A DNA stretch of 64,000 nucleotides from a bacterium (GCA_963674965.2 CAXXFL010000005.1:128001-192000); one strand, 5' to 3'; counted from the first letter of the stretch, positions 12,398 through 64,000 are shown. The notes: generated by a model not told the origin, from the sequence alone. Numbers and translations: made by a program.

Positions 12398-12476
12398 TCG
12401 AAAACCGCGGTCAAGCCGGCGGGCCGGCTCTCGAATCGAGACGGGACCGGCGAAGTAAAAATCGGGAGGAAATTAA

Positions 12477-17028: not shown

Positions 17029-17060
17029 ACCGTAAAGAAATGGAACCTCTTGTAAAAGTT

Positions 17061-17191: not shown

Positions 17192-17275
17192 CTATGCCGC
17201 CAAGAAAATGACTTTTGCAAGACTTATTAACGCGGCGGCCGAGTCCCGCGTCCGCGATAAATGGAGGTTGCGCCC

Positions 17276-41029: not shown

Positions 41030-41171
41030 TTACAGCGTGACGCGGCCCGTTCGGGCCAAAATCCATGCCCTTTAACATGAGCCCTTTCGCGACGAATTCA
41101 ATGAAAGAGGCGGAAATTTAGAGGCATTTTACTTTTCGTAATCCAAAACTCGAAGAAAAAAGGAGGAAAAA

Positions 41172-41846: not shown

Positions 41847-42243
41847 TTCGGGGACAATCTTCCGTTGCAAGTCCATAAATGGAAGAAGGGTTGAAAAAAG
41901 GTAGAAGAAATTCATAAACGAGGTTTGGCGTAAAACATTCATGGGAGGACAGACCGCCAGGTCGAAAAAACAGTTTTGCCAATTGTAGTTATTTTTTTTC
42001 GTAACATGCGCGGACGCCCTCTCGCCATCTCCTGGTGAAAAGCCAAAAAAGAAGACACTATCGATCAAAAGGCAAGTAACCTGAAATCATCCGGTCCATG
42101 CGAACTGGAGAAATCTCAGATGGCTAATCAATGGTATATCGACAAGGTGAATTTTGACTCGATTAAATTTTAACAAATGGCAAATTGTCTGCCGATAGAC
42201 AATTAACGAGAACAAAACAACGTGCATGGGAGGAGAGGATTAA

Positions 42244-43071
42244 GTGAAGAAAAAAAGTCTATATATTTTTCTGTTGTCCGCGTTTTTAATTTCTTCCGCG
42301 GCTCTTGCGGGTAAAATCCATAAGTCCGCAATAAAAGGCGATACTCGAAAAGTTGAAAAAATACTTGACAAAACTCCAGAAGAGGCCAACGCGAAGGACG
42401 AGGCGGGCAATTGTCCCTTGCATATTGCCGCAGAGTATGGACACGATGAAATTGTAAAGGTCCTTCTTGCAAAGGGAGCGGATGTAAACGCCATCGGAAA
42501 AAACGGCAACACTCCATTAAACGTCGCCGCGAAGATGGGCAAACTGGAGATAGCACAAATTCTACTATCGAATGGAGCGGATATAGCCGCGGAAGATACA
42601 AAAGGGCTTTCTCCGTTGCAGGCGGCCTTGATATTGGAAAGATGGGACGTTGCTCTTCTTCTTCTCCAAAAGGGGGCGGACGCGAAAAAACCGGACCTGA
42701 ATGGTTGGACCCCGTTACATTTCGCCGCTAAATACGGCAGGGTGAAACTGGCCGAGGAATTGATAGGAAAAGGAGTTGACATAAACGCGAAAAACAATGA
42801 AGGCCGAACGCCTTTGCAACTTACGTCATGCTCCCTCAAGCATGGAATGGCTCTAAAGGAAGTGGAGGACTGCGTAGGATCGCTTTCTATATTTGCCGAT
42901 CCTTGCGGCATGAGCAACGGGCCGTTGACTCTAAAGACCAACTCGGGAGAATTCGGCTTTGACCGATCATGCCGTTTAACTTCATGGCCAAAAACAATAC
43001 CCACCGTAATTAATACACCGGATCAAAAGGCCGCGGCCGAACTTCTTATTAAAAATGGAGCGACGAAATGA
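42244..43071 (+). CDS. Secreted ankyrin-repeat protein
   Basis: Signal peptide; repeats G.CPLHIAA, GNTPL.VAA, GWTPLHFAA, GADVNA. Confidence 0.92.
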   Translation: MKKKSLYIFLLSAFLISSAALAGKIHKSAIKGDTRKVEKILDKTPEEANAKDEAGNCPLHIAAEYGHDEIVKVLLAKGADVNAIGKNGNTPLNVAAKMGKLEIAQILLSNGADIAAEDTKGLSPLQAALILERWDVALLLLQKGADAKKPDLNGWTPLHFAAKYGRVKLAEELIGKGVDINAKNNEGRTPLQLTSCSLKHGMALKEVEDCVGSLSIFADPCGMSNGPLTLKTNSGEFGFDRSCRLTSWPKTIPTVINTPDQKAAAELLIKNGATK

Positions 43072-43116
43072 ATTTACCCCACTTCACCATAAGGTCAATA
43101 TTATTGGAGGTAAGAG

Positions 43117-44286
43117 ATGAAAAGTATAAAGTGTTTTTTATTCTTTGTGGCGTTGGCCGCCCTGGCGGCTTCCTCGATCGGGTTCGCCCAGGAAGACGCC
43201 GGTCAAGATGACGGGAAGGCCCTGATTTACGTAGTAAACGCGGGCGTGCCTCAGACTGAGCTAAGTATTGACGGTCGGACGGCTTGCCGTCTTTACGGCA
43301 AAAATTACGCGATGGTGGAGATAAAGGCCGGTCAGCGCCAGGTGCAGGTTAAAAACCTTTCAACGCCTGACGTGGCTGCCGCGAGCCTGGAATTAGGCCC
43401 GGGCGAGACTAAGTACCTCCTGCTCTATTGGGATATTAAGGCCAAGAAGCTTATCCTGAAAGAGGTGGCAGAGGCCGAGGTAGAAAAGGCGCTGCGCAAA
43501 AACAAGCCTTCTGGCCAGTGCCTTGTAAATTTAGTGCCCTACCCGAAAATAGAAGACAGGGAAATGGCCGTCTTGGCAGCCGGCGAACCCCGGCCAAAAT
43601 ACTTGAGCGACGAATATATCAACATGTCCAGGTCCGTGGCGTCTGACGTGCTGAAGAACGCTCAGTCATCAATGGCGCGCGCCAGCGGTCCCGTGCCCAC
43701 TCAGAATTCCTCGCAACAGGCCGCCGCGCAGGGGGCCGCGGCGCTGGTGGTGGCTCTGGGCACGGTGGTGGCCGGAGAAATCGCCGACGACGCCAAGGAG
43801 AGGAAAGTCGAAAAAGCCATGAAAGAATCTCTCGAGACCTACGATTTTTCCAAGTCGATGGCGGAAAGGATGGACGATACGCTTTCCGCGAACAACCGGG
43901 TAAAACGCTTCTGCGTGGAAGGAGAGACCGGCGAAGAAGGAGGATGCATTCCCTTTTCGGGCGTCGAGGACTTTAAAAGCAATTACCCCGGCAAACTGAT
44001 CCTGGTCGTCCGGCCCGGAAGCCTTATGGTCCATAAAGGAAGCGGATACCTCGAGATGGAAGTGGGCGTTTACGACCTTGAAAAGCAGGACGCAATCTAC
44101 TTCGGGACCACCAGCGCGGCGACTAGCGGAGGCGGGACCCAGAGCTTCGACCAGGTTGCCGACGCCCTTATCGAGTCGGCCGCCGTCAACCTTTCGGCCT
44201 GCCTGGCCGGCGAGGATAATTGCGTGATGCAATTTCCCATCCAGCGTTCGAGCCTGGAGGAGATGATTGGCTCCAGCAAGGAATAG
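43117..44286 (+). CDS. Secreted protein with DUF2846-like N-terminal domain
   Basis: Signal peptide; KALIYV...IDG...L....Y..VEIKAG...LELGPGETKYL. Confidence 0.65.
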   Translation: MKSIKCFLFFVALAALAASSIGFAQEDAGQDDGKALIYVVNAGVPQTELSIDGRTACRLYGKNYAMVEIKAGQRQVQVKNLSTPDVAAASLELGPGETKYLLLYWDIKAKKLILKEVAEAEVEKALRKNKPSGQCLVNLVPYPKIEDREMAVLAAGEPRPKYLSDEYINMSRSVASDVLKNAQSSMARASGPVPTQNSSQQAAAQGAAALVVALGTVVAGEIADDAKERKVEKAMKESLETYDFSKSMAERMDDTLSANNRVKRFCVEGETGEEGGCIPFSGVEDFKSNYPGKLILVVRPGSLMVHKGSGYLEMEVGVYDLEKQDAIYFGTTSAATSGGGTQSFDQVADALIESAAVNLSACLAGEDNCVMQFPIQRSSLEEMIGSSKE

Positions 44287-44367
44287 CCTTACGGCAATGG
44301 CGCGTTAGCGAAATTACTTTTAGCGTCTTTATTAAACGAAAAACACGATCTAGAGGAGGAAGACTTC

Positions 44368-44691
44368 ATGAAAATTGGAAGTATTTATGGAAAGGCGCTG
44401 GCGGCGTTATGGGCGTTCGGCTTGGCCTTTTGCGTCGGGTTCGGTTGTTCCGATGATGACGGTGGTGGCTCGGGCGGGTCCAATTGGATGCAGGTCGAGT
44501 GCGCCGACGGAGCCGATAAGATGCGGCTCCTATGCGAGGAGGATGGCATTACCGAGGCGGCCATACATAATTTCAAATTGAACTGCTACGCCTATTACCT
44601 TGAAGACCCCGTTGCGACGGCTGACGTTCTGGGATGCATCGAGAACGCCGCCAGTTGCGACTACGCCCTCGACGTTTGCCTGGCTGATTGA
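44368..44691 (+). CDS. Small Cys-rich lipoprotein
   Basis: GFGC lipobox, DDDGGG linker, six further Cys. Confidence 0.7.
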   Translation: MKIGSIYGKALAALWAFGLAFCVGFGCSDDDGGGSGGSNWMQVECADGADKMRLLCEEDGITEAAIHNFKLNCYAYYLEDPVATADVLGCIENAASCDYALDVCLAD

Positions 44692-44830
44692 TGCAGCGGG
44701 AAAAAAGACAGCTAAAGCCGGACCGCGAGGCCCGGCGCGTGGGCGTTGGCCAGCCGTTGGGCAATGGAAGGGGCGGTAATTTCAATCGCTCGTGACGATC
44801 TTTACTGGATGATGAAGGGAGAAAAACCGA

Positions 44831-45568
44831 ATGACCAAGGAAATAACAAGGTTCGTTGCCGCCGCGGTGATTGGTACCATCGCGTTGGTCTTTTTGTCTT
44901 TAGGCTGCAGTGGTGGAGGCGGCGACGATCCCCCGGCGGACGTCGAGAAGGAATATTATATGACGGGCTTCACCTATTACAGGTGGGACGGCTTGAACTA
45001 TTCGAGCTTTGAGATTTACATGACATACGATGATGACGATCGAGTTTATTACATCACCACGCCTAAGGCCGTATCCACCGTGACTTTCGATGAGGACGGG
45101 AAAGAATTGACTTTCGAGACGAGCGCTCCGGCGACTTACGCCTTCATTTACGACGGGAGCGGCAAATGCGTAGGATGGAACAAAACCGGCGGTCTCTCCG
45201 CCGCGTGGACTTACGATGGATCAGGAAAACTTGTCAGAGTCGACCTGAACGACGGAAGATATTTCACCTATTCTTATGACGCCTCGGGTGAGGTCGAGTC
45301 GATAGACTTTTATCCGGAGGCGAACTGGGACATCGACTGGAAAGATTTCACCAATTCCTCCGGCCTTCCCGTCAGGCTCGACAGGGAAGATGGGTGGTGG
45401 GCGACGGCCCAATACGACTCGAACGGCAATTTGGACAGGATTGACGATTCGTCCGGCGACTACTACGTATTCCATCACCAGAAGATGGCCAAGAAAAATT
45501 GGTACACCGACCGCCCGCCCTACAGGTGGCTCCTGGATTCGGAACTGGTCGATGAGGTGTATCATTGA
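44831..45568 (+). CDS. Lipoprotein with YD/RHS-like repeats
   Basis: SLGC lipobox; TYDDDDR, YDGSGK, TYDGSGKL, SYDASGE, YDSNGNL. Confidence 0.75.
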   Translation: MTKEITRFVAAAVIGTIALVFLSLGCSGGGGDDPPADVEKEYYMTGFTYYRWDGLNYSSFEIYMTYDDDDRVYYITTPKAVSTVTFDEDGKELTFETSAPATYAFIYDGSGKCVGWNKTGGLSAAWTYDGSGKLVRVDLNDGRYFTYSYDASGEVESIDFYPEANWDIDWKDFTNSSGLPVRLDREDGWWATAQYDSNGNLDRIDDSSGDYYVFHHQKMAKKNWYTDRPPYRWLLDSELVDEVYH

Positions 45569-45687
45569 CCGATGAGCCAAGGAAAGGCATTTATTGAACG
45601 GAACGGCGCTCTTCATAAGCCATTGACGCGTTAATCGTTGAAAGGGGATGCTTTAATATCACGGGCCAATACTGCCACGGATAGGAG

Positions 45688-51806: not shown

Positions 51807-52508
51807 ATGAACGGCAAAGACGAGGAATACTCGGGCCTGGCAAGATATATCGAGGCCGAGCACGGGGACCTGGAGGGATGGCTGCGGGACGTTATGGTCT
51901 GGCTTCCATCCTGTATACCCGGCCTTGCCGGCGTGGCGATCAGGTCCGTTTGGGACCGCCCGTGGATTCGGGGAAATGGAAGGTTCGCCCTCGAGGCCGG
52001 AGTCAGGATACTGGGCGCAAAGTACATACGGATCGACGGCGGGGTATACATAGACGCGGGGGCTTATCTGCACGGACGCGAGGGGGGGCTTTCCATTGGA
52101 AAAGGATCGCGTCTCATGCGGGGCGCGGTGGTGCACGTTTACAATTTCCGAAAGCTCGAGTCGGCGGGAGTTAATATAGGACAAGACTGCGTGATAGGAA
52201 TAAACTGCGTGATCACCGGACAGGGCGGAGTCGAGATCGAGGACAAGGTGATTATGGCCCCCGGCTCGATGGTCCTTCCCGTGGACCACGCGTACTCGGA
52301 CCGCGAGGTCCCCATCAAGGACCAGGGGATCGTGGGAAAAGGTATCCGCGTTAAAAGCGGGGCCTGGATAGGCGCGGGCGCCATCGTGCTGGACGGAGTG
52401 ACGGTGGGAAGAAACGCCGTGGTCGGCGCCGGGGCCGTCGTTACCGAGGACGTGGCGGACGGGGCCGTTGTAACCGGCGTGCCCGCCAGGGAAATAAAGC
52501 GCATATAA
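51807..52508 (+). CDS. Hexapeptide-repeat acyltransferase
   Basis: IG.DC.IG, DH...PIKDQG, WIGAGAIVLDGVTVG, GVPAR. Confidence 0.9.
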   Translation: MNGKDEEYSGLARYIEAEHGDLEGWLRDVMVWLPSCIPGLAGVAIRSVWDRPWIRGNGRFALEAGVRILGAKYIRIDGGVYIDAGAYLHGREGGLSIGKGSRLMRGAVVHVYNFRKLESAGVNIGQDCVIGINCVITGQGGVEIEDKVIMAPGSMVLPVDHAYSDREVPIKDQGIVGKGIRVKSGAWIGAGAIVLDGVTVGRNAVVGAGAVVTEDVADGAVVTGVPAREIKRI

Positions 52509-52521
52509 TCGAGGATTAAAA

Positions 52522-53424
52522 GTGATCGACCTTATCGAAGCGGTCCTTCAGACCATGCGGCCCAAGCAGTGGATTAAGAACCTCATTATCTTCGCGCCTT
52601 TGGCCTTTGCCCAGAAGCTCCTCGATTTTGACATGGCTATCCGCTCGATAGGCGCCTTTATCGTTTTTTGTCTGGCCAGCTCGAGCGTATATCTGGTGAA
52701 CGATATCCTGGATAAAGAGGCCGACAGCCACCATCCCGAAAAGAAAAACCGGCCCATTGCCTCGGGCCGACTGTCGGTAACGGCCGCGGCCGTCGCCGCC
52801 GCCGCCGTGCTCGCCGCGTCCCTGGCCGGGGCGCTGGCCATCGACCTGAAAATTTTGATCATCGTCGCCGCCTACATGGCGCTTAACGCGGCTTATTCGG
52901 CCTTTCTGAAGAAGATAGTTATCGTGGACGCTTTTTGCATAGCCTTTGGTTTTATCTTAAGGATGCTGGCCGGCGCCGAGGCCCTGCGCTCGATCGATCC
53001 CAATATAGTCGTTTCTACCTGGATAGTGCTTTGTACTCTCCTCGGCTCTCTTTTCCTGGCTTTTTGCAAGCGGCGCCACGAGCTGGGACTCGAGGAGGCC
53101 GCCGCCAGCCACCGGGCCTCACTGGAAGAGTACGGAATAAGGTTCCTGGACCAGATGATCGCCATCTCGACGGCCTGCACGGTCATGGCCTACGCTCTCT
53201 GGACCATGTGGCAGGAAACCATCGACAAATTCGGACACGGCCTGTTCTGGACCATTCCCTTCGTCTGCTACGGCATCTTCAGATACCTCTATCTTGTCCA
53301 TCAAAAAGACCTGGGCGGGTCCCCATCCAAGATATTCCTCTCCGACGTGCCCCTTATCGTCAACATCCTGCTCTGGATCGGATCGGTGATGGGAATACTC
53401 TATTATAAAAGCCTGGCGGGATAG
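52522..53424 (+). CDS. UbiA-family polyprenyl-phosphate phosphoribosyltransferase (DPPR synthase-like)
   Basis: RPKQWIKN, YLVNDILD..AD..HP.K..RPIASG, YS..LK, KRRHEL, YGIFRY. Confidence 0.9.
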   Translation: MIDLIEAVLQTMRPKQWIKNLIIFAPLAFAQKLLDFDMAIRSIGAFIVFCLASSSVYLVNDILDKEADSHHPEKKNRPIASGRLSVTAAAVAAAAVLAASLAGALAIDLKILIIVAAYMALNAAYSAFLKKIVIVDAFCIAFGFILRMLAGAEALRSIDPNIVVSTWIVLCTLLGSLFLAFCKRRHELGLEEAAASHRASLEEYGIRFLDQMIAISTACTVMAYALWTMWQETIDKFGHGLFWTIPFVCYGIFRYLYLVHQKDLGGSPSKIFLSDVPLIVNILLWIGSVMGILYYKSLAG

Positions 53425-56075: not shown

Positions 56076-56096
56076 GCTTAAACCAGCTTGACCCGG

Positions 56097-56131
56097 GCGG
56101 CGGGGGACTCGATTCCCTCGCCGCTTTTTTC
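56097..56131 (+). terminator. Intrinsic terminator after groEL
   Basis: GCGGCGGGGG...CCCTCGCCGC followed by a T tract. Confidence 0.7.
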
Positions 56132-56266: not shown

Positions 56267-57700
56267 ATGAAGCGTCCCCTCGCGTCGATCATCATCCCGG
56301 CCCGCGACGAGGAGGCCAACCTGGCCCGTTGCCTCGAGGCGATCAACGGCCAGGACACCGGCTTCGAGTACGAGGTCATCGTGGTCGACTCGGGCTCGAG
56401 GGACAAGACGGCCCAGGTCGCCGAGTCCATGGGCGCGACGGTCATCGAGATCGGGCGGGACTCCTTCCAGCACGGCCGGACCAGGCAAATGGCGGCCGAG
56501 CGCTCGAGGGGAGAATACGTGGTCTGCCTGGTGGCGGACGCGGTCCCGGCCGACTCCCGCTGGCTGGGGAAGCTGGTCGAGGCCTCGTCGGGAGAGGGCG
56601 TCGCGGGGGCCTACTCGAGGCAGGTACCCCGCGAGGGCGCCGGGCCCATCGAGGCCCACCGCCTCGAGCACCGGGGGTCCTTTCGGCTCGAGCCAAGGAT
56701 AGCCGAGATCAAGGACATGGACTTCTGGGCCATGACGCCCAAGCAAAGGCTCGATTTCTGCGAGTTCGACGACGTGTCCGCCTGCCGGAGGCGGTCGGTA
56801 ATGGACCGCTTCCCCATTCCCGAGGTTGACTGGGCGGAGGACCTGCTCTGGGCCAAGAAGGTCCTCCTGGCCGGATACAAGATAGCCTACGAGCCGGAAT
56901 CGGTGGTCAGGCATTCTCACAAGGACGACCTCGCCCACGCCTTTAAAAGAGGATACCTGGACCAGACCGTGGTGAAGGAGTTCTTCGGGCTGATCTTTTT
57001 CGACTCGGCCCGGGCCCTGGCCAAAGGATACGCCCTCATGGCGGCCGAGCGCTCCCGAGTCATCGCCGGGCGCTCGCGCGGTCCCGCCGCGAGGGCGAGA
57101 ACCACCGGAGCCGACGCGGTCCTGCTCGCCTCCCAACTCGCCGGCAACTACGCGGCCTCGCGAGACGTGAAGACCGGCCACGCGGTCCACGATCTCACCT
57201 CCATCATGTCGAAGCGGAGGGCCTCTCGAGTCTCGCGCTCGGGCTCGATCATGAAAACCCGTTTCGTCCTGGACGCCGACGGACGGCCCACGCTCTTCAT
57301 GAACCCCGACGCCCACGCCTCGGCGCGGCTGAGGATACCGGAGGGAGGAAGACTGCGGTTCGGCGCGGCCCTCAACCCGGAATGTCGCCCCCACCGAAAG
57401 GGCCCCGTAAGGTTTATCGCCGCCGTCGGGCAAGAGCCGCTGTGGGACAGATGGATCGGACCCGGCGCGAGAGGCGCGGCGCCCAAGTGGGAGGAGGCCG
57501 ACGTGGACTTATCGAAATGGGCGGGAAAAGAAGTCACTCTTTCCCTTATTACGCGGGCCAGGGACACGTCCCACGCCTGGGCCGGATGGGGGAATCCGCG
57601 CGTTATGGCCGAGCGGTTGTCCGGTATCGACCTGATCTATAACCGAGCGCTCGAGACCATCAGGGAGAAAGCCATGGGCAAGCCCCTCCGGCGCCCGTGA
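56267..57700 (+). CDS. Glycosyltransferase family 2 (rhamnosyltransferase-like) with extra C-terminal beta-sandwich domain
   Basis: SIIIP, VVDSGSRD.T, F.HG.TR, AYSRQ.PR, AED..WA, YEP.S.V.HSH. Confidence 0.9.
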   Translation: MKRPLASIIIPARDEEANLARCLEAINGQDTGFEYEVIVVDSGSRDKTAQVAESMGATVIEIGRDSFQHGRTRQMAAERSRGEYVVCLVADAVPADSRWLGKLVEASSGEGVAGAYSRQVPREGAGPIEAHRLEHRGSFRLEPRIAEIKDMDFWAMTPKQRLDFCEFDDVSACRRRSVMDRFPIPEVDWAEDLLWAKKVLLAGYKIAYEPESVVRHSHKDDLAHAFKRGYLDQTVVKEFFGLIFFDSARALAKGYALMAAERSRVIAGRSRGPAARARTTGADAVLLASQLAGNYAASRDVKTGHAVHDLTSIMSKRRASRVSRSGSIMKTRFVLDADGRPTLFMNPDAHASARLRIPEGGRLRFGAALNPECRPHRKGPVRFIAAVGQEPLWDRWIGPGARGAAPKWEEADVDLSKWAGKEVTLSLITRARDTSHAWAGWGNPRVMAERLSGIDLIYNRALETIREKAMGKPLRRP

Positions 57701-57777
57701 ATCGCGTCCGTCCTTATAGTAAGATAATGCCCGACGCCGGGCCATAACCGGGGCTCGAAAAATCGAAGGAGGAAAAA

Positions 57778-57975
57778 ATGGCCGATTGTCCGAACAGGGA
57801 AAGGAACCTGAAAGAATGCAACTGCACTTACGAGCCTTGCGGCAGGAAGGGCATTTGCTGCGAGTGCATAGCCTACCATCGGCGGATGGGCGAGATTCCC
57901 GCTTGCCTTTTCAGCAAGGAGGGGGAGGCGACTTACGACCGTTCCATCTCCATGTTCAAGAAGAAACACATGTAG
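57778..57975 (+). CDS. Small Cys-rich protein (DUF6485-like)
   Basis: [39 protein letters not shown]...E.TYDRS. Confidence 0.8.
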
Positions 57976-58028
57976 GTGACCATGGCGATAAATATTGTAA
58001 ATGAACGGCGGGGGGGCGGCCCGGGGAT

Positions 58029-59807
58029 TTGAAGGTCCTGTTCATATATCCCGACGTGGGGACCCTGATTCCGGCCGATTATCAGCATGGCCTGGGCGTG
58101 CTCATGGCCGTGCTGAAAAAGGCGGGACACGAGGCGGGGCTGATCTACGCCCATGACGAGTTGGAAAGAGGCGACCTTATCGGGAAAGTCCGCGCCTTCG
58201 ATCCGGGCCTCGTGGCTTTCACCTCGGTGAGCAGCCAGTTCCAGCGGGCCGCTCGCTACGCCGAGTGGATCAAGGATAGCGAGCGGGTCCCGACCGTTAT
58301 AGGGGGCGTCCACGCGACCCTGTCCCCCGAGGAGGTCATGGCCCGGCCCGGCTTCGACATGCTTTGCAGGGGAGAGGGGGAAGAGGCCCTGCTCGAGCTG
58401 GCCGACGGCCTCGAGGCGGGCCATGACGTCAGCGGCCTGGCCAACCTCTGGGTCAAGCGCGGAGGCGACGTGGTCCGGAACAAGGTCCGTCCCCTTATCC
58501 GGGACCTTGACGAGCTTCCCTTCCCCGACCGGGGACCCTTCGACTTCGAGAGGATACTCGAGGGCAAGGACGGGGCCTGCTCCATGCTCATGGGGAGAGG
58601 ATGCCCCTACGATTGCGCCTACTGCGCCAACGAGGGACTGCGGGCCCTTTACAAGGGAGGAGGCCAATACGTCCGGACCAGGTCGGTGGACTCCGTGCTC
58701 GAGGAAATGAGGTCCCTCCTCGAGCGCTACGACGTCAAAAAATGGGAGTTCAACGACGACGTGTTCACCTTGAAAAAAAACTGGATGATGGAATTCCTCG
58801 ACCGCTATCCTCGCGAGTTCAGCCTGCCCTTCGACGTGAACGTCAGGGTCGAGACGGCCGACCGGGCCTCTCTTTTCGCCCTTAAAAAGGCCGGGTGCGA
58901 GCAGATCAGGGTGGGGGTCGAGTCGGGCAGCGACCGGGTCCGGGCCGAGATCATGGGACGGCGCATGCCCCGGGAGAGCATAATCTCCGTGTTCAGGAAC
59001 GCCGAGGAGGCGGGCCTTAAAACCTGGTCCTTTAACATGGTGGGCCTGCCGGGAGAGACCGAGGAGGACGCCATGCAAACGGTGCGGCTAAACGACGAGC
59101 TCGGGCCCGACCAGATGCAGGTCAGCGTCTTCAACCCCTATCCGGGCACCCGGCTCTACGATTTATGTCTCGAGAGGGGCGTAATATCGGACGACTCGAG
59201 GGACGGTTACTTCCTGCCCGAGTCGGCCCTCAAGCTGCCCGAGTTTCATCCCGACGCCATTAAAAGAGTACACGCCGAGCTTATCCGGACCCGCGACAAG
59301 TGGCACACGAAAAAAAAGCTTTTGGCCCTGCTTGGCGGCAAGCCACCTTTCCTCGACCTGGTGGACGCCCTTGAGGACGCCCGCATACAAACTCCCGAGC
59401 CCATCTTCGTGGGTGAGGATTTCTTCTGGATCGGGCGGGACGCGAGAAGGACCCTCCGAATTCACCCGCCTTCCCGCGCGCTTTTCAAGCTCAGGCTGCC
59501 GGCCGCCCCCCAGTTCAGGTTCAGCCTGGCCATGCATCCCCAGGTCCTGGACAGGCCCGGCGGAGACGGCGTGGTCTTCACCGTCCGCGTGGGCAGGTTC
59601 GTTCGGACCATGAAGAAAGTTTTCGAGAAGACCATCGACCCCAAGCGGCGGGAAGAGGATCGGGGATGGTTGGACCAGTCGATCGATTTGGACGCCTGGG
59701 CCAAAAGGAAGGTCTACCTCGAAATATCGACGCGGACGGCCGATCCCGACTCTCCCGACCACAACACGGTGGGGCTGGGTTATCCTATTATAGTGGAGCG
59801 AGACTGA
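58029..59807 (+). CDS. Cobalamin-binding radical SAM enzyme with extra C-terminal domain
   Basis: GGVHAT, GEGE, LPFPDR, GRGCPYDCAYC, DDVF, GVESGS, MVGLPGET, PYPGT; TTG start. Confidence 0.93.
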   Translation: MKVLFIYPDVGTLIPADYQHGLGVLMAVLKKAGHEAGLIYAHDELERGDLIGKVRAFDPGLVAFTSVSSQFQRAARYAEWIKDSERVPTVIGGVHATLSPEEVMARPGFDMLCRGEGEEALLELADGLEAGHDVSGLANLWVKRGGDVVRNKVRPLIRDLDELPFPDRGPFDFERILEGKDGACSMLMGRGCPYDCAYCANEGLRALYKGGGQYVRTRSVDSVLEEMRSLLERYDVKKWEFNDDVFTLKKNWMMEFLDRYPREFSLPFDVNVRVETADRASLFALKKAGCEQIRVGVESGSDRVRAEIMGRRMPRESIISVFRNAEEAGLKTWSFNMVGLPGETEEDAMQTVRLNDELGPDQMQVSVFNPYPGTRLYDLCLERGVISDDSRDGYFLPESALKLPEFHPDAIKRVHAELIRTRDKWHTKKKLLALLGGKPPFLDLVDALEDARIQTPEPIFVGEDFFWIGRDARRTLRIHPPSRALFKLRLPAAPQFRFSLAMHPQVLDRPGGDGVVFTVRVGRFVRTMKKVFEKTIDPKRREEDRGWLDQSIDLDAWAKRKVYLEISTRTADPDSPDHNTVGLGYPIIVERD

Positions 59808-60931
59808 TGTTCTCGGAAGATTCGATAAGGAACATGAAGGACTCGATCGAGTCGGGCCGGCCCGCGTCGGGTCCCACTGACCTCCAAATCCTGCCCACGG
59901 CCAGGTGCAACGCGGCCTGCGCCTTTTGTCCGCTCCAGGCTGTACCCAGCCGCCACAAGCCCCGCGTGCCCAGGTTCACCATGTACAAGGAGGACCTGCC
60001 GGGAGGAGTGCTGGACAGGCTGGCCGACGACCTCTATCATCTCGGCGGCCTGAAAAGGGTCACCATCACGGGAGGCGAGCCCCTGCTCTACGGTCTGATC
60101 ATCCCGGCCATCTTCCAGTTCACCCGCTCTTTTCCCGAGGCCCGCCTGACCATCGTGACCAACGGCCTGCGTCTTAAAAAGTTCGCGCCGATCCTGCCCC
60201 GTCTCGGTCTGCATAACCTGAGCGTCAGTCTCAACGCGGGCCGGCCCGAAAGTTACGCGTCGCAAAACCCCGGCTCCGCGCCCGAGTCCTTCGGGCAAAT
60301 TCTCGAGGGTATCGAGAGCCTGGTCAAGACCAGGAATGGACTGGAGTTAAAGGACCCCCACGTCACCCTCTCGGTCGTTCTGACCAGGCACTCGGCCGGC
60401 GACGTGAAGGAGCTTTACGAAATCGGGGCCAGGACCGGCGTAAACGCGGTCACCTTCATCCCCCTGATGCGGATCGTGATCGATGGGGACCCCTCGAACG
60501 ACGGGCTTGCACTCGGCCGGGAAGACCTGGCCAGGTTCCATGAGGAATTGGCCATGTACTCGGAGAAGGCCAAGAATGACGGCTTCTATCTTGGCTACGC
60601 CGGCGAGGAGGACGACGGCGGGGTGATCTCCGACAATGGTCTTTATAAGACCCAGCCCTGCTACGCGGGCTATTCCTTCGCCGCGGTCTACCCGAGCGGA
60701 GACGTAAGGACCTGCTGCCACTGCGAGCCGATCATGGGCAACCTCCGTCACCGCTCGTTCGGAGAAATCTGGAACTCGGAAAAATACGCGGGGCGCCGGC
60801 GCAAGATGGCCCAGATTCATAATAACGGCGGAATCATCGAGGGATGCCTGTGCTCCGAGTGCGGATACCTTTTCGAGAATAAGGAATATCATCGGCTGCT
60901 GGGAACGGCGGGAAACGATGAACGACCGTGA
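59807..60931 (+). CDS. Radical SAM enzyme with SPASM/twitch domain
   Basis: CNAACAFC, TGGEPL, TNG, C...GDVRTCC..MGNL...EIWN..C..C; TGATG overlap. Confidence 0.92.
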   Translation: MFSEDSIRNMKDSIESGRPASGPTDLQILPTARCNAACAFCPLQAVPSRHKPRVPRFTMYKEDLPGGVLDRLADDLYHLGGLKRVTITGGEPLLYGLIIPAIFQFTRSFPEARLTIVTNGLRLKKFAPILPRLGLHNLSVSLNAGRPESYASQNPGSAPESFGQILEGIESLVKTRNGLELKDPHVTLSVVLTRHSAGDVKELYEIGARTGVNAVTFIPLMRIVIDGDPSNDGLALGREDLARFHEELAMYSEKAKNDGFYLGYAGEEDDGGVISDNGLYKTQPCYAGYSFAAVYPSGDVRTCCHCEPIMGNLRHRSFGEIWNSEKYAGRRRKMAQIHNNGGIIEGCLCSECGYLFENKEYHRLLGTAGNDERP

Positions 60932-61976
60932 GCGGCTCCTTTTTTACTACGCGGCCGGGCGCCTCTTCCTGCCCAGGCCCCGCTATCTTTGCTTCAACTC
61001 GACCCTTCGCTGCGACGGACGCTGCGTCCACTGCGGTATCTGGAAGGACAAGTCCGGACCTGAGCGGGGCGAGATCGGCGCCGCCGAGTTGGGCCGTATC
61101 CTGGACCAGCCTTTTTTCCATCGGATCGAGACGGCCTGGATAACCGGGGGCGAGCCCACCTTGAGAGAAGATATCCCCGAGGTGGCGAAAGCCCTTACCG
61201 GCCGCCTGCCATCCCTTTCCACCCTGGGAATTGCCACGAACGGTCTCGCCCCGGCGCGGGTCCTCGGCCGGGCCCGGGGCATGATCGAGGCGGCCGGGCC
61301 TTCCCGATCCGTCTTTTTCCACGTCTCCCTCGATGGAGCGGGCGACACGCACGACCTGGCCCGGAACCGGCAAGGCGCCTTCAAGGCGGTCATGGAAACC
61401 GTGGCCGGCCTGAAGAAACTGCAAAGCGCAAAATCGGGCGCCCGCGTCGAGATAGGACTCAACTGCGTCATAAGCCCCGTCAACGTGGCTGGGCTGGACG
61501 CCCTTCACGAGCTGGCCCGCGACCTCGGCGTGCCCATCACCTTCAACCTGGCGCTGGTCACGGACCAGGTTTACCGAAACGCGGAGGCCGAGAAGGACCT
61601 TGTCCCCTCCGATAAGCAACGGCTCGAGGTGATCGAGTTCCTGGACCGGATCGCGCCCGTCAGCCCCGCGCCCTTTCAGTACCAGTACAATATTATCCAG
61701 GCCATACTGCGAGGAAGACCGAGACCGAGAAGGTGCCTCACCATGTTCAGCACGATCAATATTAACGCCGACGCCACGCTTATCCTTTGCCCGGCGGCCT
61801 CGGACTGGTTTCCCGAGGACGTGACGGGCAAGGACTTAACCAGGATATGGAACGGCCCCGCGGCCCGCGAGACGAGGAGGAGGGTCATAAGGGAGCTTTG
61901 TCCGAGTTGCCCCCTCAGCTGCTCGCTGGGCGACTCGATGCCGTTTTCCGAATGGGTCCGGGGATGGGAAGGCTGA
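60918..61976 (+). CDS. Radical SAM enzyme with SPASM/twitch domain
   Basis: CDGRCVHC, TGGEPTL, TNG, VSLDG..HD..R, C..LILC..IWN..CPSC..SC. Confidence 0.92.
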   Translation: MNDRERLLFYYAAGRLFLPRPRYLCFNSTLRCDGRCVHCGIWKDKSGPERGEIGAAELGRILDQPFFHRIETAWITGGEPTLREDIPEVAKALTGRLPSLSTLGIATNGLAPARVLGRARGMIEAAGPSRSVFFHVSLDGAGDTHDLARNRQGAFKAVMETVAGLKKLQSAKSGARVEIGLNCVISPVNVAGLDALHELARDLGVPITFNLALVTDQVYRNAEAEKDLVPSDKQRLEVIEFLDRIAPVSPAPFQYQYNIIQAILRGRPRPRRCLTMFSTININADATLILCPAASDWFPEDVTGKDLTRIWNGPAARETRRRVIRELCPSCPLSCSLGDSMPFSEWVRGWEG

Positions 61977-61977: not shown

Positions 61978-63048
61978 ATGGCGGCCCTGAAATTACCCCG
62001 CTTCCTTAAAAGGACGGACGAGGAAAAAATCGAGTCCGATCCCATGTCGGGCGTCGTGTTCGAGACCAGCGCCGTCTGTCAGCTCAGATGCCCCCATTGC
62101 GTCAGGATGGCCTGCGGGCAAGGTCCGTCGCCGTCCGTCATGCCCATGGCGGTCGTCGATCGGGTCCTGCCCGGCTTGCGGGATAAAGAGTCCATCGACC
62201 TTACCGGATGGGGCGAGCCCCTGCTCAACAAGGACCTCGTCGATATTATAAAAAAAATAAGGACGGGCTTTGGCGGCCGGATTACCATGACCACCAACGG
62301 CCTGTTATTGGACGAGGCCAAGACCAGGGCCCTGATCGAGCTGGGCCTGGACACGATATGCTTTTCCATGGACGCGGCGGACGAAGAGTCATACCACGCG
62401 GCCAGGCCGGGAGCGGACTGGGACCTGTTCAAGAAAAACCTCGCCTTCTTCAGCCGGATGAAGAGGAAAAGCGGCGTCGCGAATCCGCTGCTATTCGCCG
62501 CCTTCCTTCTTAGGCGCGAGGCCCTCGGTTCGGCGGCCGACTTCGTCAGGACCGCGGCCGAGCTGGGACTCGACGGAGTGGCCTTCCAGCAGCTTACCGG
62601 TCTCCTGTCCGAAAAGGACCTCGAGAGAGTCACCCACCGGGGCTACTTCGGAAACGACTTTGACGAGCGCCTATTGGACGAGGCCATGCAAAAGGCCATG
62701 GACGCCGCCCCCCCCGGCTTCACCATCGTCCTGCCCGAGACCATCGAGTCGAAAAGGGTCGGCGGCTGCGGCGGCTGGGACATAACCCGCCCCTTCATCA
62801 CGCCGGCGGGGGACGTGTCCCTTTGCTGCGCCATGGTTTACGATAACGACTTCCTCAAAAGGGATGGCGGGACGGCCCACATGCCGTCGGTGGTCTTCGG
62901 AAACCTGGCGAAAAATTCCCTGGCCCATATCTGGGACTCGCCCGAGTTCAGGAAAGTCCGGGACGAAATCAGGTCGGGAGCCGTTCCCGCGGCCTGCGGC
63001 GACTGCATCGGCCTGTACATGCGTCCCGGCCGGGTCTTTACAAAATAG
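61978..63048 (+). CDS. Radical SAM enzyme with SPASM/twitch domain
   Basis: CQLRCPHC, GWGEPLL, TTNG, GDVSLCC, FGNL...IW..P.F..R, CGDC. Confidence 0.92.
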   Translation: MAALKLPRFLKRTDEEKIESDPMSGVVFETSAVCQLRCPHCVRMACGQGPSPSVMPMAVVDRVLPGLRDKESIDLTGWGEPLLNKDLVDIIKKIRTGFGGRITMTTNGLLLDEAKTRALIELGLDTICFSMDAADEESYHAARPGADWDLFKKNLAFFSRMKRKSGVANPLLFAAFLLRREALGSAADFVRTAAELGLDGVAFQQLTGLLSEKDLERVTHRGYFGNDFDERLLDEAMQKAMDAAPPGFTIVLPETIESKRVGGCGGWDITRPFITPAGDVSLCCAMVYDNDFLKRDGGTAHMPSVVFGNLAKNSLAHIWDSPEFRKVRDEIRSGAVPAACGDCIGLYMRPGRVFTK

Positions 63049-63211
63049 GACAAGTTCGGGCCTTCGGGTATTGCATTGTTTTTTCAAGTCCCTTATAATC
63101 TCGTATACTTACTTTATTCACGGGGAAAAAACGCTTTTGCCGCGCGCCCCCGAGGCCGAGAGCGGTCCGGCGTTTTCGTTAAGTAAAATACACTTTTAAG
63201 GAGCAAGGGTG

Positions 63212-64000
63212 ATGAAAAGATACCTTAAGGCTTTTGTTGGCTTCGCGGCCGCCGCGCTGATTTCTCTTTCGGCGTCGGCCCAGACGCCCCCCTCGGAGAT
63301 AACCTACCAGGGGCGGCTATTCGATTCCACGGGATATCCGGTCTCGGGCACGGTCCTGATGGAGTTCAAGATCACCGACTACCAGTCGGAGATGCCCTCG
63401 GTGACCGACGAGCCCCATACCCTGGCGGGCGTGACGGCCGTGTCCCTTGGCCACGCTAACGTTCTCGCCACCTCGGACGTGGTCACGAGCCTTTCGGGCG
63501 CCACGGTCTACGTCCGCGCCGTGGACTATACCATCAATTACCTAAGCGGCTCGATCGCTCGGGTGGGAGGAGGCGGCATTCCCGACCCCTCCGACGTGCT
63601 GGTAGACTACTGGTACAGCCAGATGGTGACGACCCTGTGGTCCGAGACCCAGGCGGTCGAGGTGACCGACGGACTTTACTCGGTAAGGCTGGGCGCGTCC
63701 AATCCCCTGGACGCGTCCGTGCTCGAGAGCGGGGGGGCCTTCCTCGAGGTCAACGTGGAGGGACAGAGGCTTACGCCGCGCCAGCCCCTCACCAGCGTGC
63801 CCTACGCCATGATCGCCGGCAAGGTGATCGACGGCTCGAGTTCGGGGTTGGACGCGGACCTTCTGGACGGGCTCGACTCGACGGCCTTCTCCCTGGACGG
63901 GCACACTCACTCCGAGTACGCTCTTATCGGGCACACCCACACCGAGTACGCCCTCGCCGGCCACGACCACGACGCGGCGGATATAATCTCGGGCACTATT
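63212..64000 (+). CDS. Secreted tail-fibre-like adhesin, 5' portion (not in the ORF track because it is open at the window edge)
   Basis: Hand translation: MKRYLKAF...SASA/QTPPSEITYQGRL...LWSETQ.V.V.DGLYSV.LG...PRQPLTSVPYA...LDADLLDG...GHTHSEYA..GHTHTEYA..GHDH; AAGGAG RBS. Confidence 0.85.
   Translation, partial: MKRYLKAFVGFAAAALISLSASAQTPPSEITYQGRLFDSTGYPVSGTVLMEFKITDYQSEMPSVTDEPHTLAGVTAVSLGHANVLATSDVVTSLSGATVYVRAVDYTINYLSGSIARVGGGGIPDPSDVLVDYWYSQMVTTLWSETQAVEVTDGLYSVRLGASNPLDASVLESGGAFLEVNVEGQRLTPRQPLTSVPYAMIAGKVIDGSSSGLDADLLDGLDSTAFSLDGHTHSEYALIGHTHTEYALAGHDHDAADIISGTI

What the first reader, a model, noticed from the sequence alone, without database searches (positions are those of the whole stretch)
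57179..59795. The same ~140-aa C-terminal domain is appended to both the glycosyltransferase and the B12-radical SAM enzyme
Seen by manual alignment. GT2 tail (~57179-57605): HDL...FVLDADGRPTLFMNP...LRIP...LRF..LNP...GPVRF...WDRWIGP...KWEEADVDLSKWAGKEVTLSLITR...GWGNPRV. rSAM tail (~59345-59795): LDL...FWIGRDARRTLRIHP...LRLP...FRF..MHP...DGVVF...FEKTIDP...GWLDQSIDLDAWAKRKVYLEISTR...GLGYPII. Two unrelated catalytic folds in one cluster carry a homologous beta-rich module. Inference: a shared substrate-recognition or docking domain (galactose-binding/NPCBM-like jelly roll) acting like an RRE for a glycan, which would tie the two enzymes to one substrate.
Basis: partly seen in the sequence, partly recalled or inferred. 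Interest (0 to 1): 0.75.

Follow-up and report, generated by a model that had tools for sequence, protein, structure and literature searches.

The report
Shared sugar-binding-like tail on two enzymes
A glycosyltransferase and the radical SAM enzyme encoded next to it do end in the same ~130-residue beta-sandwich module, which belongs to a very large, uncatalogued family of sugar-binding-like domains and probably holds these enzymes onto a surface polysaccharide while it is being built.

Summary
The GT2 tail (residues ~325-455) and the B12-radical SAM tail (~461-592) align at 31% identity, E 2e-11, far above shuffled controls. Both fold with high confidence into the same beta-sandwich, and solved CBM51/NPCBM modules are the best structural matches (Z 12.7 and 13.2).

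The module is not private to these two genes. A profile finds 5081 protein clusters, mostly membrane GT-C glycosyltransferases (PMT_2+TPR, YfhO, PF10131, DUF2079), plus sulfatases, methyltransferases, GT2 and B12-rSAM enzymes. No Pfam or NCBIfam model covers it.

All 12 same-class relatives searched carry it. The operon SPASM-rSAM / GT2~tail / DUF6485 / B12-rSAM~tail / three SPASM-rSAMs is conserved in 8 of 9 loci fetched. In five relatives it lies directly beside Wzt, with Wzm found next to Wzt in the four checked, so this is an ABC-transporter-dependent glycan cluster.

The two tails are not each other's closest relatives, and they differ at nearly all family-conserved loop positions, so "one identical ligand" is unsupported. 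Binding is untested.

The parts
56095..56126 (+). Terminator-like hairpin after groEL; the GT2 gene opens a new transcription unit
   Evidence: 13-bp stem with 9 GC pairs followed by a T run; the number of terminator-like sites in the region equals the shuffle expectation, so this is a weak mark
56267..57700 (+). GT2 (GT-A fold) glycosyltransferase with a C-terminal beta-sandwich tail, 477 aa
   Evidence: PF00535 residues 7-141, E 2.2e-22; PF13641 residues 6-228. No NCBIfam equivalog: best is MftF at 63 bits against a cut-off of 280
57239..57631 (+). GT2 tail: NPCBM/CBM51-like beta-sandwich domain (residues ~325-455)
   Evidence: Profile envelope; AF2 pLDDT 92.9; 7jrm_A CBM51 Z 13.2, rmsd 2.3 A over 120 residues
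57778..57975 (+). Small Cys-rich DUF6485 protein (65 aa) between the two tail-bearing genes
   Evidence: PF20095 E 2.3e-8, above cut-off; single copy in the genome; present in 7 of 8 relatives' operons at 65-77% identity, with 7 Cys and 1 His invariant
58029..59807 (+). B12-binding radical SAM enzyme with a C-terminal beta-sandwich tail, 592 aa, TTG start
   Evidence: PF02310 residues 21-124, PF04055 residues 187-354. Best NCBIfam hit is HpnJ at 150 bits against a cut-off of 577.6, so no equivalog
59406..59804 (+). rSAM tail: NPCBM/CBM51-like beta-sandwich domain (residues ~461-592)
   Evidence: AF2 pLDDT 92.5, pTM 0.85; 7jrm_A CBM51 Z 12.7, rmsd 2.1 A over 115 residues; Foldseek matches to MAM domains and CBMs at E ~1e-4
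59807..60931 (+). Radical SAM/SPASM enzyme 1; its ATG overlaps the rSAM stop codon (TGATG)
   Evidence: PF04055 + PF13186; overlap read; ortholog in 8 of 9 relatives' loci
60918..61976 (+). Radical SAM/SPASM enzyme 2
   Evidence: PF04055 + PF13186; conserved in 8 of 9 loci
61978..63048 (+). Radical SAM/SPASM enzyme 3
   Evidence: PF04055 + PF13186; best NCBIfam hit TIGR04311 at 132.6 bits against a cut-off of 400; conserved in 8 of 9 loci

Best explanation
**What it is.** Both tails are copies of one ancient beta-sandwich domain of about 130 residues. It is a remote relative of the CBM51/NPCBM lectin-like modules. It belongs to a very large family without a Pfam or NCBIfam model, which serves mainly as an accessory module of enzymes that build or tailor envelope glycoconjugates.

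**What it most likely does here (inferred).** In this lineage the domain sits on the cytoplasmic enzymes of an ABC-transporter (Wzm/Wzt)-dependent polysaccharide pathway. That polymer is assembled on a lipid carrier at the cytoplasmic face of the membrane. There the GT2 adds a sugar, and the B12-radical SAM enzymes and four SPASM radical SAM enzymes tailor it. I infer that each tail binds the nascent lipid-linked glycan, or one stage of it, through the loops at one end of the sandwich. This would hold the catalytic domain on the polymer, much as the Wzt C-terminal domain holds the exporter on the finished chain.

**Which steps are shown and which inferred.**
- Shown: homology, fold, family size, fusion partners, operon conservation, Wzm/Wzt linkage.
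- Inferred: cytoplasmic location, the glycan ligand, the loop binding site, and the order of reactions.

The two tails have different residues at the putative site, so they probably read different epitopes or stages of the polymer, not one identical ligand.
For: **Homology.** BLASTP E 2e-11. In the shuffle control, 51.6 bits against a maximum of 23.9 in the 500 shuffles returned.

**Fold.** pLDDT 92.5 and 92.9. Five of the six best solved chains for each tail are named CBM51: Z 11.1-12.7 for the rSAM tail and 11.4-13.2 for the GT2 tail. The next fold class follows at 10.7 and 9.5. hhalign against an NPCBM alignment gives 59% probability, E 9e-5, over 101 columns; the family's H of 'HPPS' falls on NPCBM's invariant 'GxHA' histidine and the 'D-W' on 'DxxDWA'. 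One ESM Atlas neighbour cluster carries NPCBM on 22% of its members.

**Family size.** 5081 representatives at E <= 1e-3, 2113 at <= 1e-10, 137 at <= 1e-30.

**Fusion partners, 37 representatives scanned.**
- 7 PMT_2
- 3 TPR only
- 2 YfhO
- 2 PF10131
- 2 sulfatase
- 2 B12-rSAM
- 2 GT2
- 1 each: DUF2079, DUF6541, rSAM+FliW, methyltransferase+Trm112p, weak GbpA_2
- 12 with no family

**Operon.** The order SPASM0 / GT2~tail / DUF6485 / B12-rSAM~tail / SPASM1-3 is found in 8 of 9 relatives' loci.

**Transporter linkage.**
- Wzt (ABC_tran + Wzt_C) lies directly upstream in G005, G006, G007 and G008 and in G009.
- Wzm lies next to it in G005-G008.
- A hexapeptide transferase, a methyltransferase and a GT4 lie downstream in three loci. 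The same trio sits next to this genome's own paralogous tail-bearing rSAM.

**Same module on the other side of the membrane.**
- It occurs inside YfhO-type GT-C proteins of this genome.
- It follows a lipoprotein signal on sulfatases.
- One such sulfatase abuts the operon in G002.

**Putative site.** The family-conserved polar and aromatic residues (H, W, D-P-K, D-R-x-W, D-W, G-W) all fall in alternate inter-strand loops, which by strand parity lie at one end of the sandwich.

**Precedents in print.**
- EmbC, a GT-C enzyme, carries a C-terminal CBM that binds its acceptor (PMC3044687, abstract read).
- Wzt recognises the modified chain terminus through a carbohydrate-binding domain after cytosolic synthesis (PMC9445017, start of abstract in the search listing only).
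- Intracellular NPCBM domains have been described (PMC8195603, passages read).
Against: - No binding data exist, and a shared fold shows no function.
- The Pfam NPCBM model finds nothing in this genome or in its 12 same-class relatives. The profile-profile probability is only 59%.
- The two tails are not sisters in the domain tree. They are no more alike (26.6%) than GT2 tails are to arbitrary family members (27.0%). The window's GT2 tail is closer to a PMT_2+TPR protein's domain (38.7%) than to its neighbour's tail (30.6%).
- At the family-conserved positions, operon rSAM tails keep H, D, K and R but lose the three Trp (L507, T580, L583 in the window). GT2 tails keep two of the three Trp and mostly lose the third (R 44%, W 33%); they also lose H (N346), the G of 'DGV' (P), D, K and R. 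One or both sites may therefore be degenerate.
- In this genome and its own family (G001-G004), Wzt lies on other contigs, so the transporter link is by orthology, not adjacency.
- The placement of the conserved residues at one end of the sandwich rests on strand parity, not on measured coordinates.
- Only the top 150 of the 5081 hits could be examined, and that list favours proteins with two copies.
Confidence: 0.55

Rival explanations
1. **Membrane or lipid-carrier anchor.** The domain binds the anionic head of polyprenyl-(pyro)phosphate carriers or the membrane surface. It thereby brings soluble enzymes (GT2, rSAM) and periplasmic domains (GT-C loops, lipoprotein sulfatases) to the leaflet where lipid-linked substrates sit. 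The sugar itself is not recognised.
For: - The family-conserved residues include H, K and R next to Trp, which would suit a phosphate plus a lipid interface.
- Most identified fusion partners use polyprenyl-phosphate-linked substrates or act at the membrane: PMT_2, YfhO, PF10131, DUF2079, DUF6541 and sulfatase/phosphotransferase-type enzymes.
- The module occurs on both sides of the membrane.
- GOLD domains of lipid-transfer proteins appear among the structural neighbours: 1o6u Z 8.7 and 8.1, 4tlg.
Against: - The best structural matches, by a clear margin, are carbohydrate-binding modules. GOLD-type hits lie in the common-fold range of Z about 8.
- GT2 tails have lost H, K and R.
- Methyltransferase+Trm112p and rSAM+FliW fusions are not obviously membrane enzymes.
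Confidence: 0.15
2. **Protein-protein docking module.** The tails dimerise, with each other or with the second B12-rSAM's tail, or dock onto a common scaffold such as Wzt. This would assemble GT2 and the radical SAM enzymes into one complex; the lectin-like site would be vestigial.
For: - The module often occurs as tandem pairs in one protein: 2 stretches in most of the top 100 hits. This shows that copies can sit side by side.
- Three to four tail-bearing enzymes are encoded in one operon in some relatives (G005: GT2 plus three rSAMs).
- Both operon tail types have lost part of the family's conserved loop residues.
Against: - Nothing shows contact.
- The domain is mostly found on single large membrane enzymes outside this operon.
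- Each tail type is conserved as its own clade with its own preserved subset of loop residues. That fits retained ligand sites better than a shared interface.
Confidence: 0.15
3. **RRE-like recognition of a protein substrate.** The Cys-rich DUF6485 protein encoded between the two genes is the substrate or carrier of the pathway (a heavily modified peptide). Both tails bind it, and the GT2 and the radical SAM enzymes modify it.
For: - DUF6485 lies exactly between the two tail-bearing genes.
- It is single-copy in the genome.
- It is present in 7 of 8 relatives' operons.
- Four SPASM radical SAM enzymes are typical of peptide maturation.
Against: - DUF6485 is 65-77% identical along its whole length, with 7 Cys and 1 His invariant. 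That looks like a folded metal-binding protein, not a leader plus core.
- It is absent from the G003 operon.
- DUF6485 also matches, above the family cut-off, in two control genomes (Thermotoga maritima, Methanocaldococcus jannaschii).
- The domain family is overwhelmingly attached to glycan enzymes.
- The operon is embedded in Wzm/Wzt, GT4 and acyltransferase genes, with no protease or peptide exporter seen.
- The fold is not that of an RRE.
Confidence: 0.05
4. **Inert structural appendage.** The tails are leftover or purely stabilising domains with no ligand. They are conserved only because they pack against the catalytic domains.
For: Both tail types deviate from the family consensus at many loop positions. 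No function has been shown for any member.
Against: - The tails are retained in every ortholog examined across a whole class: 9 GT2 and 10 operon rSAM tails.
- Clade-specific residues are well conserved, for example H, G, D and R at 100% in operon rSAM tails and two Trp at 100% in GT2 tails.
- The same module was recruited independently to many enzyme classes.
Confidence: 0.1

Closest known systems
CBM51 / NPCBM (Pfam PF08305), e.g. the Clostridium perfringens ZmpB, GH95 and GH98 modules (PDB 7jrm, 2vmi, 2vng)
   Same: - Same beta-sandwich, superposing over 113-120 of ~131 residues at 2.1-2.3 A, Z 12.2-13.2, for both tails.
- Weak profile-profile signal with matching histidine and D-W motifs.
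- Intracellular NPCBM domains are already known in bacterial conflict systems (PMC8195603, passages read).
   Different: - About 10-13% identity.
- The Pfam model does not detect these tails.
- Known CBM51 modules sit on secreted glycoside hydrolases and peptidases that degrade host glycans. This family sits on biosynthetic enzymes: GT-C, GT2, B12-rSAM, sulfatase-type and methyltransferase.
- The ligand is unknown.
Wzt C-terminal carbohydrate-binding domain (Pfam PF14524) of O-antigen ABC exporters
   Same: - A cytoplasmic beta-sandwich that recognises the lipid-linked polymer in the same type of pathway (PMC9445017, start of abstract only).
- A Wzt with this domain is encoded next to the operon in five relatives.
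   Different: - A different sequence family: PF14524 does not hit the tails.
- It sits on the exporter, not on tailoring enzymes.
- That Wzt_C binds the chain's terminal cap is established knowledge, not tested here.
C-terminal lectin-like CBM of the GT-C arabinosyltransferase EmbC (also the CBMs of AftD)
   Same: A carbohydrate-binding beta-sandwich fused to a glycosyltransferase, which binds the acceptor glycan and is needed for activity (PMC3044687, abstract read; AftD preprint seen only in the listing).
   Different: - Periplasmic, on one mycobacterial enzyme family.
- Neither EmbC nor AftD appears among the solved chains listed as fold matches.
- Here the module is also on cytoplasmic enzymes, including radical SAM enzymes.
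The ~215-225-residue beta-sandwich module shared by Wzt, radical SAM enzymes, glycosyltransferases and a sulfatase in Omnitrophota
   Same: The same logic: an uncatalogued lectin-like module repeated on the enzymes (rSAM, GT, sulfatase) of a Wzt-linked glycan cluster (AI notes, unchecked).
   Different: - About 220 residues against about 130.
- No sequence look-alike was found by shared words.
- In those findings the exporter itself carries the module. Here Wzt keeps a canonical Wzt_C.
- Whether the two modules are related was not tested.
HpnI (GT2) / HpnJ (B12-radical SAM) of hopanoid side-chain synthesis
   Same: A GT2 adds a sugar that a B12-radical SAM enzyme then rearranges (recalled knowledge). 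HpnJ is the best NCBIfam match of this rSAM, E 9.6e-44.
   Different: - The score of 150 bits is far below the cut-off of 577.6.
- No squalene-hopene cyclase was found in this genome (genome 97.6% complete).
- HpnI and HpnJ carry no such tail (recalled).

Membership tests
CBM51 / NPCBM (PF08305) | Beta-sandwich fold superposable on solved CBM51 modules | tested here: met
   rSAM tail: 7jrm_A Z 12.7, rmsd 2.1 A, 115 aligned. GT2 tail: 7jrm_A Z 13.2, rmsd 2.3 A, 120 aligned. Five of the top six chains for each are named CBM51
CBM51 / NPCBM (PF08305) | Sequence recognised by the Pfam NPCBM model at its gathering score | tested here: not met
   No PF08305 hit on any of the 11 domain sequences even at E <= 10. 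No match at E <= 1e-5 in this genome or its 12 same-class relatives, while 7 of 151 genomes searched do match
CBM51 / NPCBM (PF08305) | Remote homology by profile-profile comparison | tested here: inconclusive
   hhalign of A2 against a 7-sequence NPCBM alignment: probability 59%, E 9e-5, 101 columns, 16% identity. One ESM Atlas neighbour cluster has NPCBM on 22% of its members
CBM51 / NPCBM (PF08305) | Binds galactose-containing or other glycans | not testable with these tools
   Needs glycan arrays, ITC or a co-crystal
MAM / InhA-like MAM (PF20773) | Sequence match to the family model | tested here: not met
   3 of 11 members hit, best E 0.072; 12.2 bits against a cut-off of 26.9. PDB sequence search: 4yu5_A at E 0.27. 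Structural Z is only 8.0-9.7
Wzt_C carbohydrate-binding domain (PF14524) | Sequence match to the family model | tested here: not met
   No PF14524 hit on the GT2, the rSAM or the domain alignment. True Wzt_C domains are found on the neighbouring Wzt of relatives and on this genome's Wzt on contig C4
RiPP recognition element (RRE, PqqD-like) | Winged helix-turn-helix fold with a three-stranded sheet that binds a leader peptide | tested here: not met
   Both models are nine-strand beta-sandwiches with one short helix
B12-binding (class B) radical SAM enzymes (host of tail 2) | N-terminal B12-binding domain plus a radical SAM domain with a CxxxCxxC cluster motif | tested here: met
   PF02310 residues 21-124 and PF04055 residues 187-354. 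The motif C-PYD-C-AY-C is read in the translation. No NCBIfam equivalog reaches its cut-off
GT2 glycosyltransferases (host of tail 1) | GT-A catalytic domain matching PF00535 | tested here: met
   PF00535 E 2.2e-22, 80.2 bits against a cut-off of 23.3. No NCBIfam equivalog reaches its cut-off
ABC-transporter-dependent (Wzm/Wzt) glycan gene cluster | Wzm and Wzt genes contiguous with the glycosyltransferase and tailoring genes | tested here: inconclusive
   Met in the relatives: Wzt adjacent in G005-G009 and Wzm adjacent in G005-G008. Not met in this genome or in G001-G004, where Wzt lies on other contigs

The most novel reading that the evidence does not exclude
The tails define a new, very large family of glycan-recognition modules, a distant NPCBM branch that works on both sides of the membrane. 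In this lineage the module physically couples six to eight radical SAM enzymes, B12-dependent and SPASM type, to a lipid-linked polysaccharide destined for Wzm/Wzt export. That would be a class of radical-SAM-tailored bacterial surface polysaccharide in which different domain variants read successive stages of the polymer. None of my literature searches turned up such a system.
Probability: 0.35. Interest if true: 0.8.

Novelty: new variant of a known kind. Interest (0 to 1): 0.55.

Why it matters
- **A domain without a model.** The family has at least 5081 clusters at 50% identity and lacks any Pfam or NCBIfam model. It sits on many of the least understood bacterial envelope enzymes: PMT_2+TPR, YfhO, PF10131, DUF2079 and DUF6541 GT-C proteins, and sulfatase-type lipoproteins. 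Naming it and finding its ligand would help annotate thousands of proteins.
- **Unusual chemistry.** Lectin-like modules on radical SAM enzymes are unusual. Here they mark a conserved operon with two to three B12-radical SAM and four SPASM radical SAM enzymes inside a Wzm/Wzt glycan cluster. This points to radical chemistry, such as C-methylation, epimerisation or rearrangement, on a surface polysaccharide.
- **A handle for experiments.** The module can be used to pull down the unknown substrate.
- **A recurring pattern.** The same design principle was noted earlier in this scan with a different module in Omnitrophota, so it may be general.

Tried and rejected
- **Close homologues in public contigs.** Scans with the whole rSAM protein found only distant B12-rSAMs (25-35% identity) that match residues 49-389 and not the tail: 2 loci in genome contigs and 12 in metagenome contigs. 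These loci were not used. Relatives were instead obtained with the genome search.
- **Complex prediction.** I tested the rSAM tail (alignment A2) against DUF6485 (alignment A3). The result was no verdict: ipSAE 0.00 in both runs, and the partner's own fold was uncertain. This counts neither for nor against binding.
- **Hopanoid link (HpnI/HpnJ analogy).** No hopene cyclase match in this genome, so I rejected hopanoids as the substrate.
- **Sequence search of the PDB with the profile.** Nothing significant; best E 0.27.
- **NCBIfam on the domain.** Only choice_anch_J in 1 of 11 members at E 0.094.
- **Recent duplication of the domain between the neighbouring genes.** Rejected by the tree and the identity statistics.
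- **Literature.**
  - 'DUF6485': 0 papers.
  - 'radical SAM' + 'carbohydrate-binding module' + 'glycosyltransferase' + 'cobalamin': 0 papers.
  - 'Wzt' + 'radical SAM': 3 genome or mutagenesis papers that by title and abstract start do not concern this.
  - A CBM51 binding-site search gave nothing usable.
  - Subscription journals are not covered, so these searches do not prove the domain is undescribed. The CAZy CBM families and InterPro/CATH superfamily models could not be queried.
- **Earlier findings of this scan.** Look-ups by place and by sequence returned nothing.

Full report
**1. The observation**

The window holds a GT2 glycosyltransferase gene (56267-57700, +, 477 aa) and a B12-binding radical SAM gene (58029-59807, +, 592 aa, TTG start).

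Pfam places the catalytic domains as follows:
- GT2: residues 7-141 (PF00535), or 6-228 (PF13641).
- rSAM: residues 21-124 (PF02310) and 187-354 (PF04055).

About 150 C-terminal residues of each protein have no family assigned. NCBIfam gives no equivalog either. The best hits are MftF at 63 bits (cut-off 280) for the GT2 and HpnJ at 150 bits (cut-off 577.6) for the rSAM.

BLASTP of the two whole proteins finds one significant segment, GT2 333-450 against rSAM 466-591: 31% identity, 52.4 bits, E 2e-11. The real tails score 51.6 bits. The 500 shuffles that BLAST returned, out of 1000 made, have a maximum of 23.9 bits, mean 15.6 and sd 1.8.

The conserved core is about 125-133 residues (window 57239-57631 and 59406-59804).

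**2. The fold**

I folded the rSAM tail with an 11-sequence alignment and the GT2 tail with a 15-sequence alignment. Both give confident models: pLDDT 92.5 with pTM 0.85, and pLDDT 92.9 with pTM 0.86. Both have nine strands and one short helix in the same order.

An all-against-all structural search of 48,161 solved chains gave these results:
- rSAM tail: CBM51 modules come first, with 7jrm_A at Z 12.7, rmsd 2.1 A over 115 residues, and 2vmi at Z 12.2. Reelin repeats follow at 10.7, then CBM36, cleaved-adhesin and MAM domains at about 9-10.
- GT2 tail: 7jrm_A at Z 13.2, and the next fold class at 9.5.

Foldseek lists 40 matches at E <= 1e-3, made up of MAM domains and CBM families 6, 16, 22 and 51. 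The best TM-score is 0.71, to the CBM51 of 7js4.

By sequence the link is faint:
- Pfam's NPCBM model hits none of the 11 domain sequences. It hits nothing in this genome or its 12 same-class relatives.
- Only InhA-like MAM appears, sub-threshold, in 3 of 11 members at E >= 0.07.
- NCBIfam gives one member at E 0.094.
- The profile against PDB sequences gives E 0.27.

I built a profile-profile comparison with seven true NPCBM domains taken from other genomes. It gives 59% probability, E 9e-5, over 101 columns. The family's 'HPPS' histidine aligns with NPCBM's invariant 'GxHA' histidine, and 'D-W...P' aligns with 'DxxDWA'. An ESM Atlas neighbour cluster carries NPCBM on 22% of its members.

I read this as a distant NPCBM/CBM51-like family, not a member of PF08305.

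**3. How widespread it is**

A word-indexed search among longer proteins found 17 proteins: 11 B12-rSAMs, 3 GT2s, 2 sulfatase-type lipoproteins with the domain at the N-terminus, and 1 PF10131 membrane protein.

An exhaustive profile search of 1.84 billion cluster representatives found 5081 at E <= 1e-3, 2113 at <= 1e-10 and 137 at <= 1e-30.

I masked the domain in the 150 best hits and clustered what remained. The groups had 26, 24, 24, 6, 4, 3, 3, 3, 2, 2 and 2 members, plus 51 singletons. Most of the large proteins carry a tandem pair of the domain.

Pfam scans of 37 representatives gave:

| Fusion partner | Count |
|---|---|
| PMT_2 (most with TPR) | 7 |
| TPR only | 3 |
| YfhO | 2 |
| PF10131 | 2 |
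| Sulfatase | 2 |
| B12-rSAM | 2 |
| GT2 | 2 |
| DUF2079 | 1 |
| DUF6541 | 1 |
| rSAM+FliW | 1 |
| Methyltransferase+Trm112p | 1 |
| Weak GbpA_2 | 1 |
| No family | 12 |

The module is therefore chiefly an accessory of GT-C membrane glycosyltransferases. B12-rSAM groups account for 3 of the 150 and GT2 groups for 2 of the 150. The top-150 list favours two-copy proteins, and the other 4931 hits were not seen.

**4. In this genome and its relatives**

The genome (6.5 Mb, 7 contigs, 97.6% complete) holds five clear copies: the GT2, the rSAM, a paralogous B12-rSAM on contig C7 and two YfhO-type proteins. There is one further weak copy at E 1.1e-4.

The rSAM tail finds matches in 15 of 61 genomes searched, this genome included. 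All 12 same-class relatives are among them.

In nine fetched loci, tblastn with the window's proteins shows this order in 8 of 9 (SPASM0 of G009 confirmed by Pfam):

SPASM-rSAM ('SPASM0') / GT2~tail / DUF6485 / B12-rSAM~tail / SPASM1 / SPASM2 / SPASM3

G011 has the rSAM alone. One or two further tail-bearing B12-rSAMs follow in 4 of the 8.

Further detail on the operon:
- DUF6485 is present in 7 of the 8 and absent in G003. It is 65-77% identical, with 7 Cys and 1 His invariant, and is single-copy in this genome.
- In the window the rSAM stop overlaps the SPASM1 start (TGATG).
- A strong terminator-like hairpin follows groEL just before the GT2.

**5. The pathway**

In the relatives the operon's flanks are informative:
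- Wzt (ABC_tran + Wzt_C) lies directly upstream of SPASM0 in G005, G006, G007 and G008 and in G009.
- Wzm (ABC2_membrane) lies next to Wzt in G005-G008.
- A hexapeptide transferase, a methyltransferase and a GT4 lie downstream in G005, G008 and G009.

In this genome the set is split over three loci:
- The window itself.
- C7, with the second rSAM, a hexapeptide transferase, a methyltransferase and a GT4. These are 37-49% identical to G008's.
- C4, with Wzt, 46% identical to G008's.

In G001-G004 Wzt is also on other contigs.

The ancestral arrangement is thus a Wzm/Wzt (ABC-transporter-dependent) glycan cluster. In such pathways the polymer is finished on its lipid carrier in the cytosol before export (PMC9445017, start of abstract only). 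This explains how a lectin-like module on cytoplasmic enzymes could meet a glycan. That the GT2 and rSAM are cytoplasmic is my inference, from the absence of any signal or membrane segment in the translations and from their cofactor needs.

**6. Are the two tails a special pair?**

No. In a tree of 65 domain sequences (quick method) the support values are:
- GT2 tails form one clade (91; the inner ten at 97*).
- Operon rSAM tails form another (99*).
- Second-rSAM tails form a third (95*), which groups weakly with YfhO and sulfatase copies.

The GT2 and operon-rSAM clades sit in an unresolved set together with PMT_2/TPR copies.

Mean identities tell the same story:
- GT2 tails against operon rSAM tails: 26.6%.
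- GT2 tails against the 249 family domains: 27.0%.
- The window's GT2 tail against a PMT_2+TPR domain: 38.7%.
- The window's GT2 tail against its neighbour's tail: 30.6%.

Column statistics over 276 aligned domains show the family-conserved residues: H (77%), W (92%), G (95%), D-P-K (80/95/71%), D-R-x-W (67/87/91%), D-L, T, D-W (85/85%), G-W (W 95%) and P.

The groups differ at these positions:
- The ten operon rSAM tails keep H, G, D, K and R (90-100%) but replace the three Trp. In the window these are L507, T580 and L583.
- The nine GT2 tails keep two of the three Trp (100%) and mostly lose the third (R 44%, W 33%). They replace H (N, 77%), G (P, 88%), D, K and R.
- The second-rSAM tails stay near consensus.

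All these residues lie in alternate inter-strand loops of the models. By strand parity that places them at one end of the sandwich. From memory, this is where CBM51-type modules bind sugar. I could not measure this on coordinates.

**7. Reading**

- Shown: homology, fold class, family size, fusion partners, conserved operon, and Wzm/Wzt linkage in the sister orders.
- Inferred: the domain is a glycan-recognition (or glycolipid-recognition) module, and each enzyme's copy is tuned to its own stage of a lipid-linked polymer.

Precedents are the acceptor-binding CBM of the GT-C enzyme EmbC (PMC3044687, abstract), the Wzt CBD and intracellular NPCBM domains (PMC8195603, passages).

Rivals are a lipid-carrier or membrane anchor, a docking module, an RRE-like reader of DUF6485, and an inert appendage. 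None is excluded.

Earlier notes of this scan describe a different module of about 220 residues shared by Wzt, rSAMs, GTs and a sulfatase in Omnitrophota. That is a parallel pattern, not independent evidence, and I did not test any relationship between the two modules.

**8. Verdict**

This is a new variant of a known kind, a CBM-type accessory module. It comes from a large family without a Pfam or NCBIfam model and sits on an unusual host, radical SAM enzymes, in a radical-SAM-rich polysaccharide cluster.

Noticed in passing
window 57778-57975 (+): A 65-aa Cys-rich DUF6485 protein lies between the two tail-bearing genes. It is single-copy in the genome and conserved at 65-77% identity in 7 of 8 relatives' operons, with 7 Cys and 1 His invariant. 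It may be a metal or Fe-S accessory of the radical SAM enzymes. No paper in the searched library mentions DUF6485.
   Followed up: partly
window 63209-64000 and beyond (L011:210-3155; then L011:3258-11939 and 12116-18001+): Right after the operon come giant surface-type proteins. The first is a 981-aa fibre-like protein whose N-terminus weakly matches NCBIfam 'tail_tube_6XGR' and 'Bdello_MAT_N' (below cut-offs). The second is a 2893-aa FG-GAP/CarboxypepD_reg protein. The third is an open frame of at least 1962 aa. A 1179-aa paralog of the fibre, 42% identical over its N-terminus, lies next to this genome's Wzt on contig C4.
   Followed up: partly
G000 contigs C4 (L060), C5 (window), C7 (L012): The gene set that is contiguous in relatives (Wzm-Wzt ... 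GT4) is split over three loci in this genome. The SPASM0 gene found upstream of the GT2 in all 8 relatives' operons is replaced here by groES-groEL plus a terminator-like hairpin.
   Followed up: partly
L042:8992-11070 (-) (G002): A sulfatase-family protein that carries the same beta-sandwich domain near its N-terminus (E 3e-9) lies directly after the operon in one relative. Similar domain-bearing sulfatases with lipoprotein signals were found in metagenomes (P0016, P0017).
   Followed up: partly
window 1-6146 (-): A lower-GC stretch (0.46-0.54) holds LPS-type genes: two GT4, a GT9 heptosyltransferase and a Wzy_C O-antigen ligase-family protein.
   Followed up: no
window 40000-45600: A second low-GC island (0.47-0.50 against ~0.61) holds an ankyrin-repeat protein (42244-43071), an RHS-repeat fragment (44831-45568) and several ORFs with no Pfam family. 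It may be horizontally acquired.
   Followed up: no
window 51807-53424 (+): A hexapeptide acyltransferase and a UbiA-family prenyltransferase lie side by side upstream of groES/groEL. No link to the operon was established.
   Followed up: no
L012:12697-13977 (-) (G000 contig C7): An FGE-sulfatase (formylglycine-generating-enzyme-like) protein with a MopE-type metal-binding motif is encoded just upstream of the paralogous tail-bearing rSAM.
   Followed up: no
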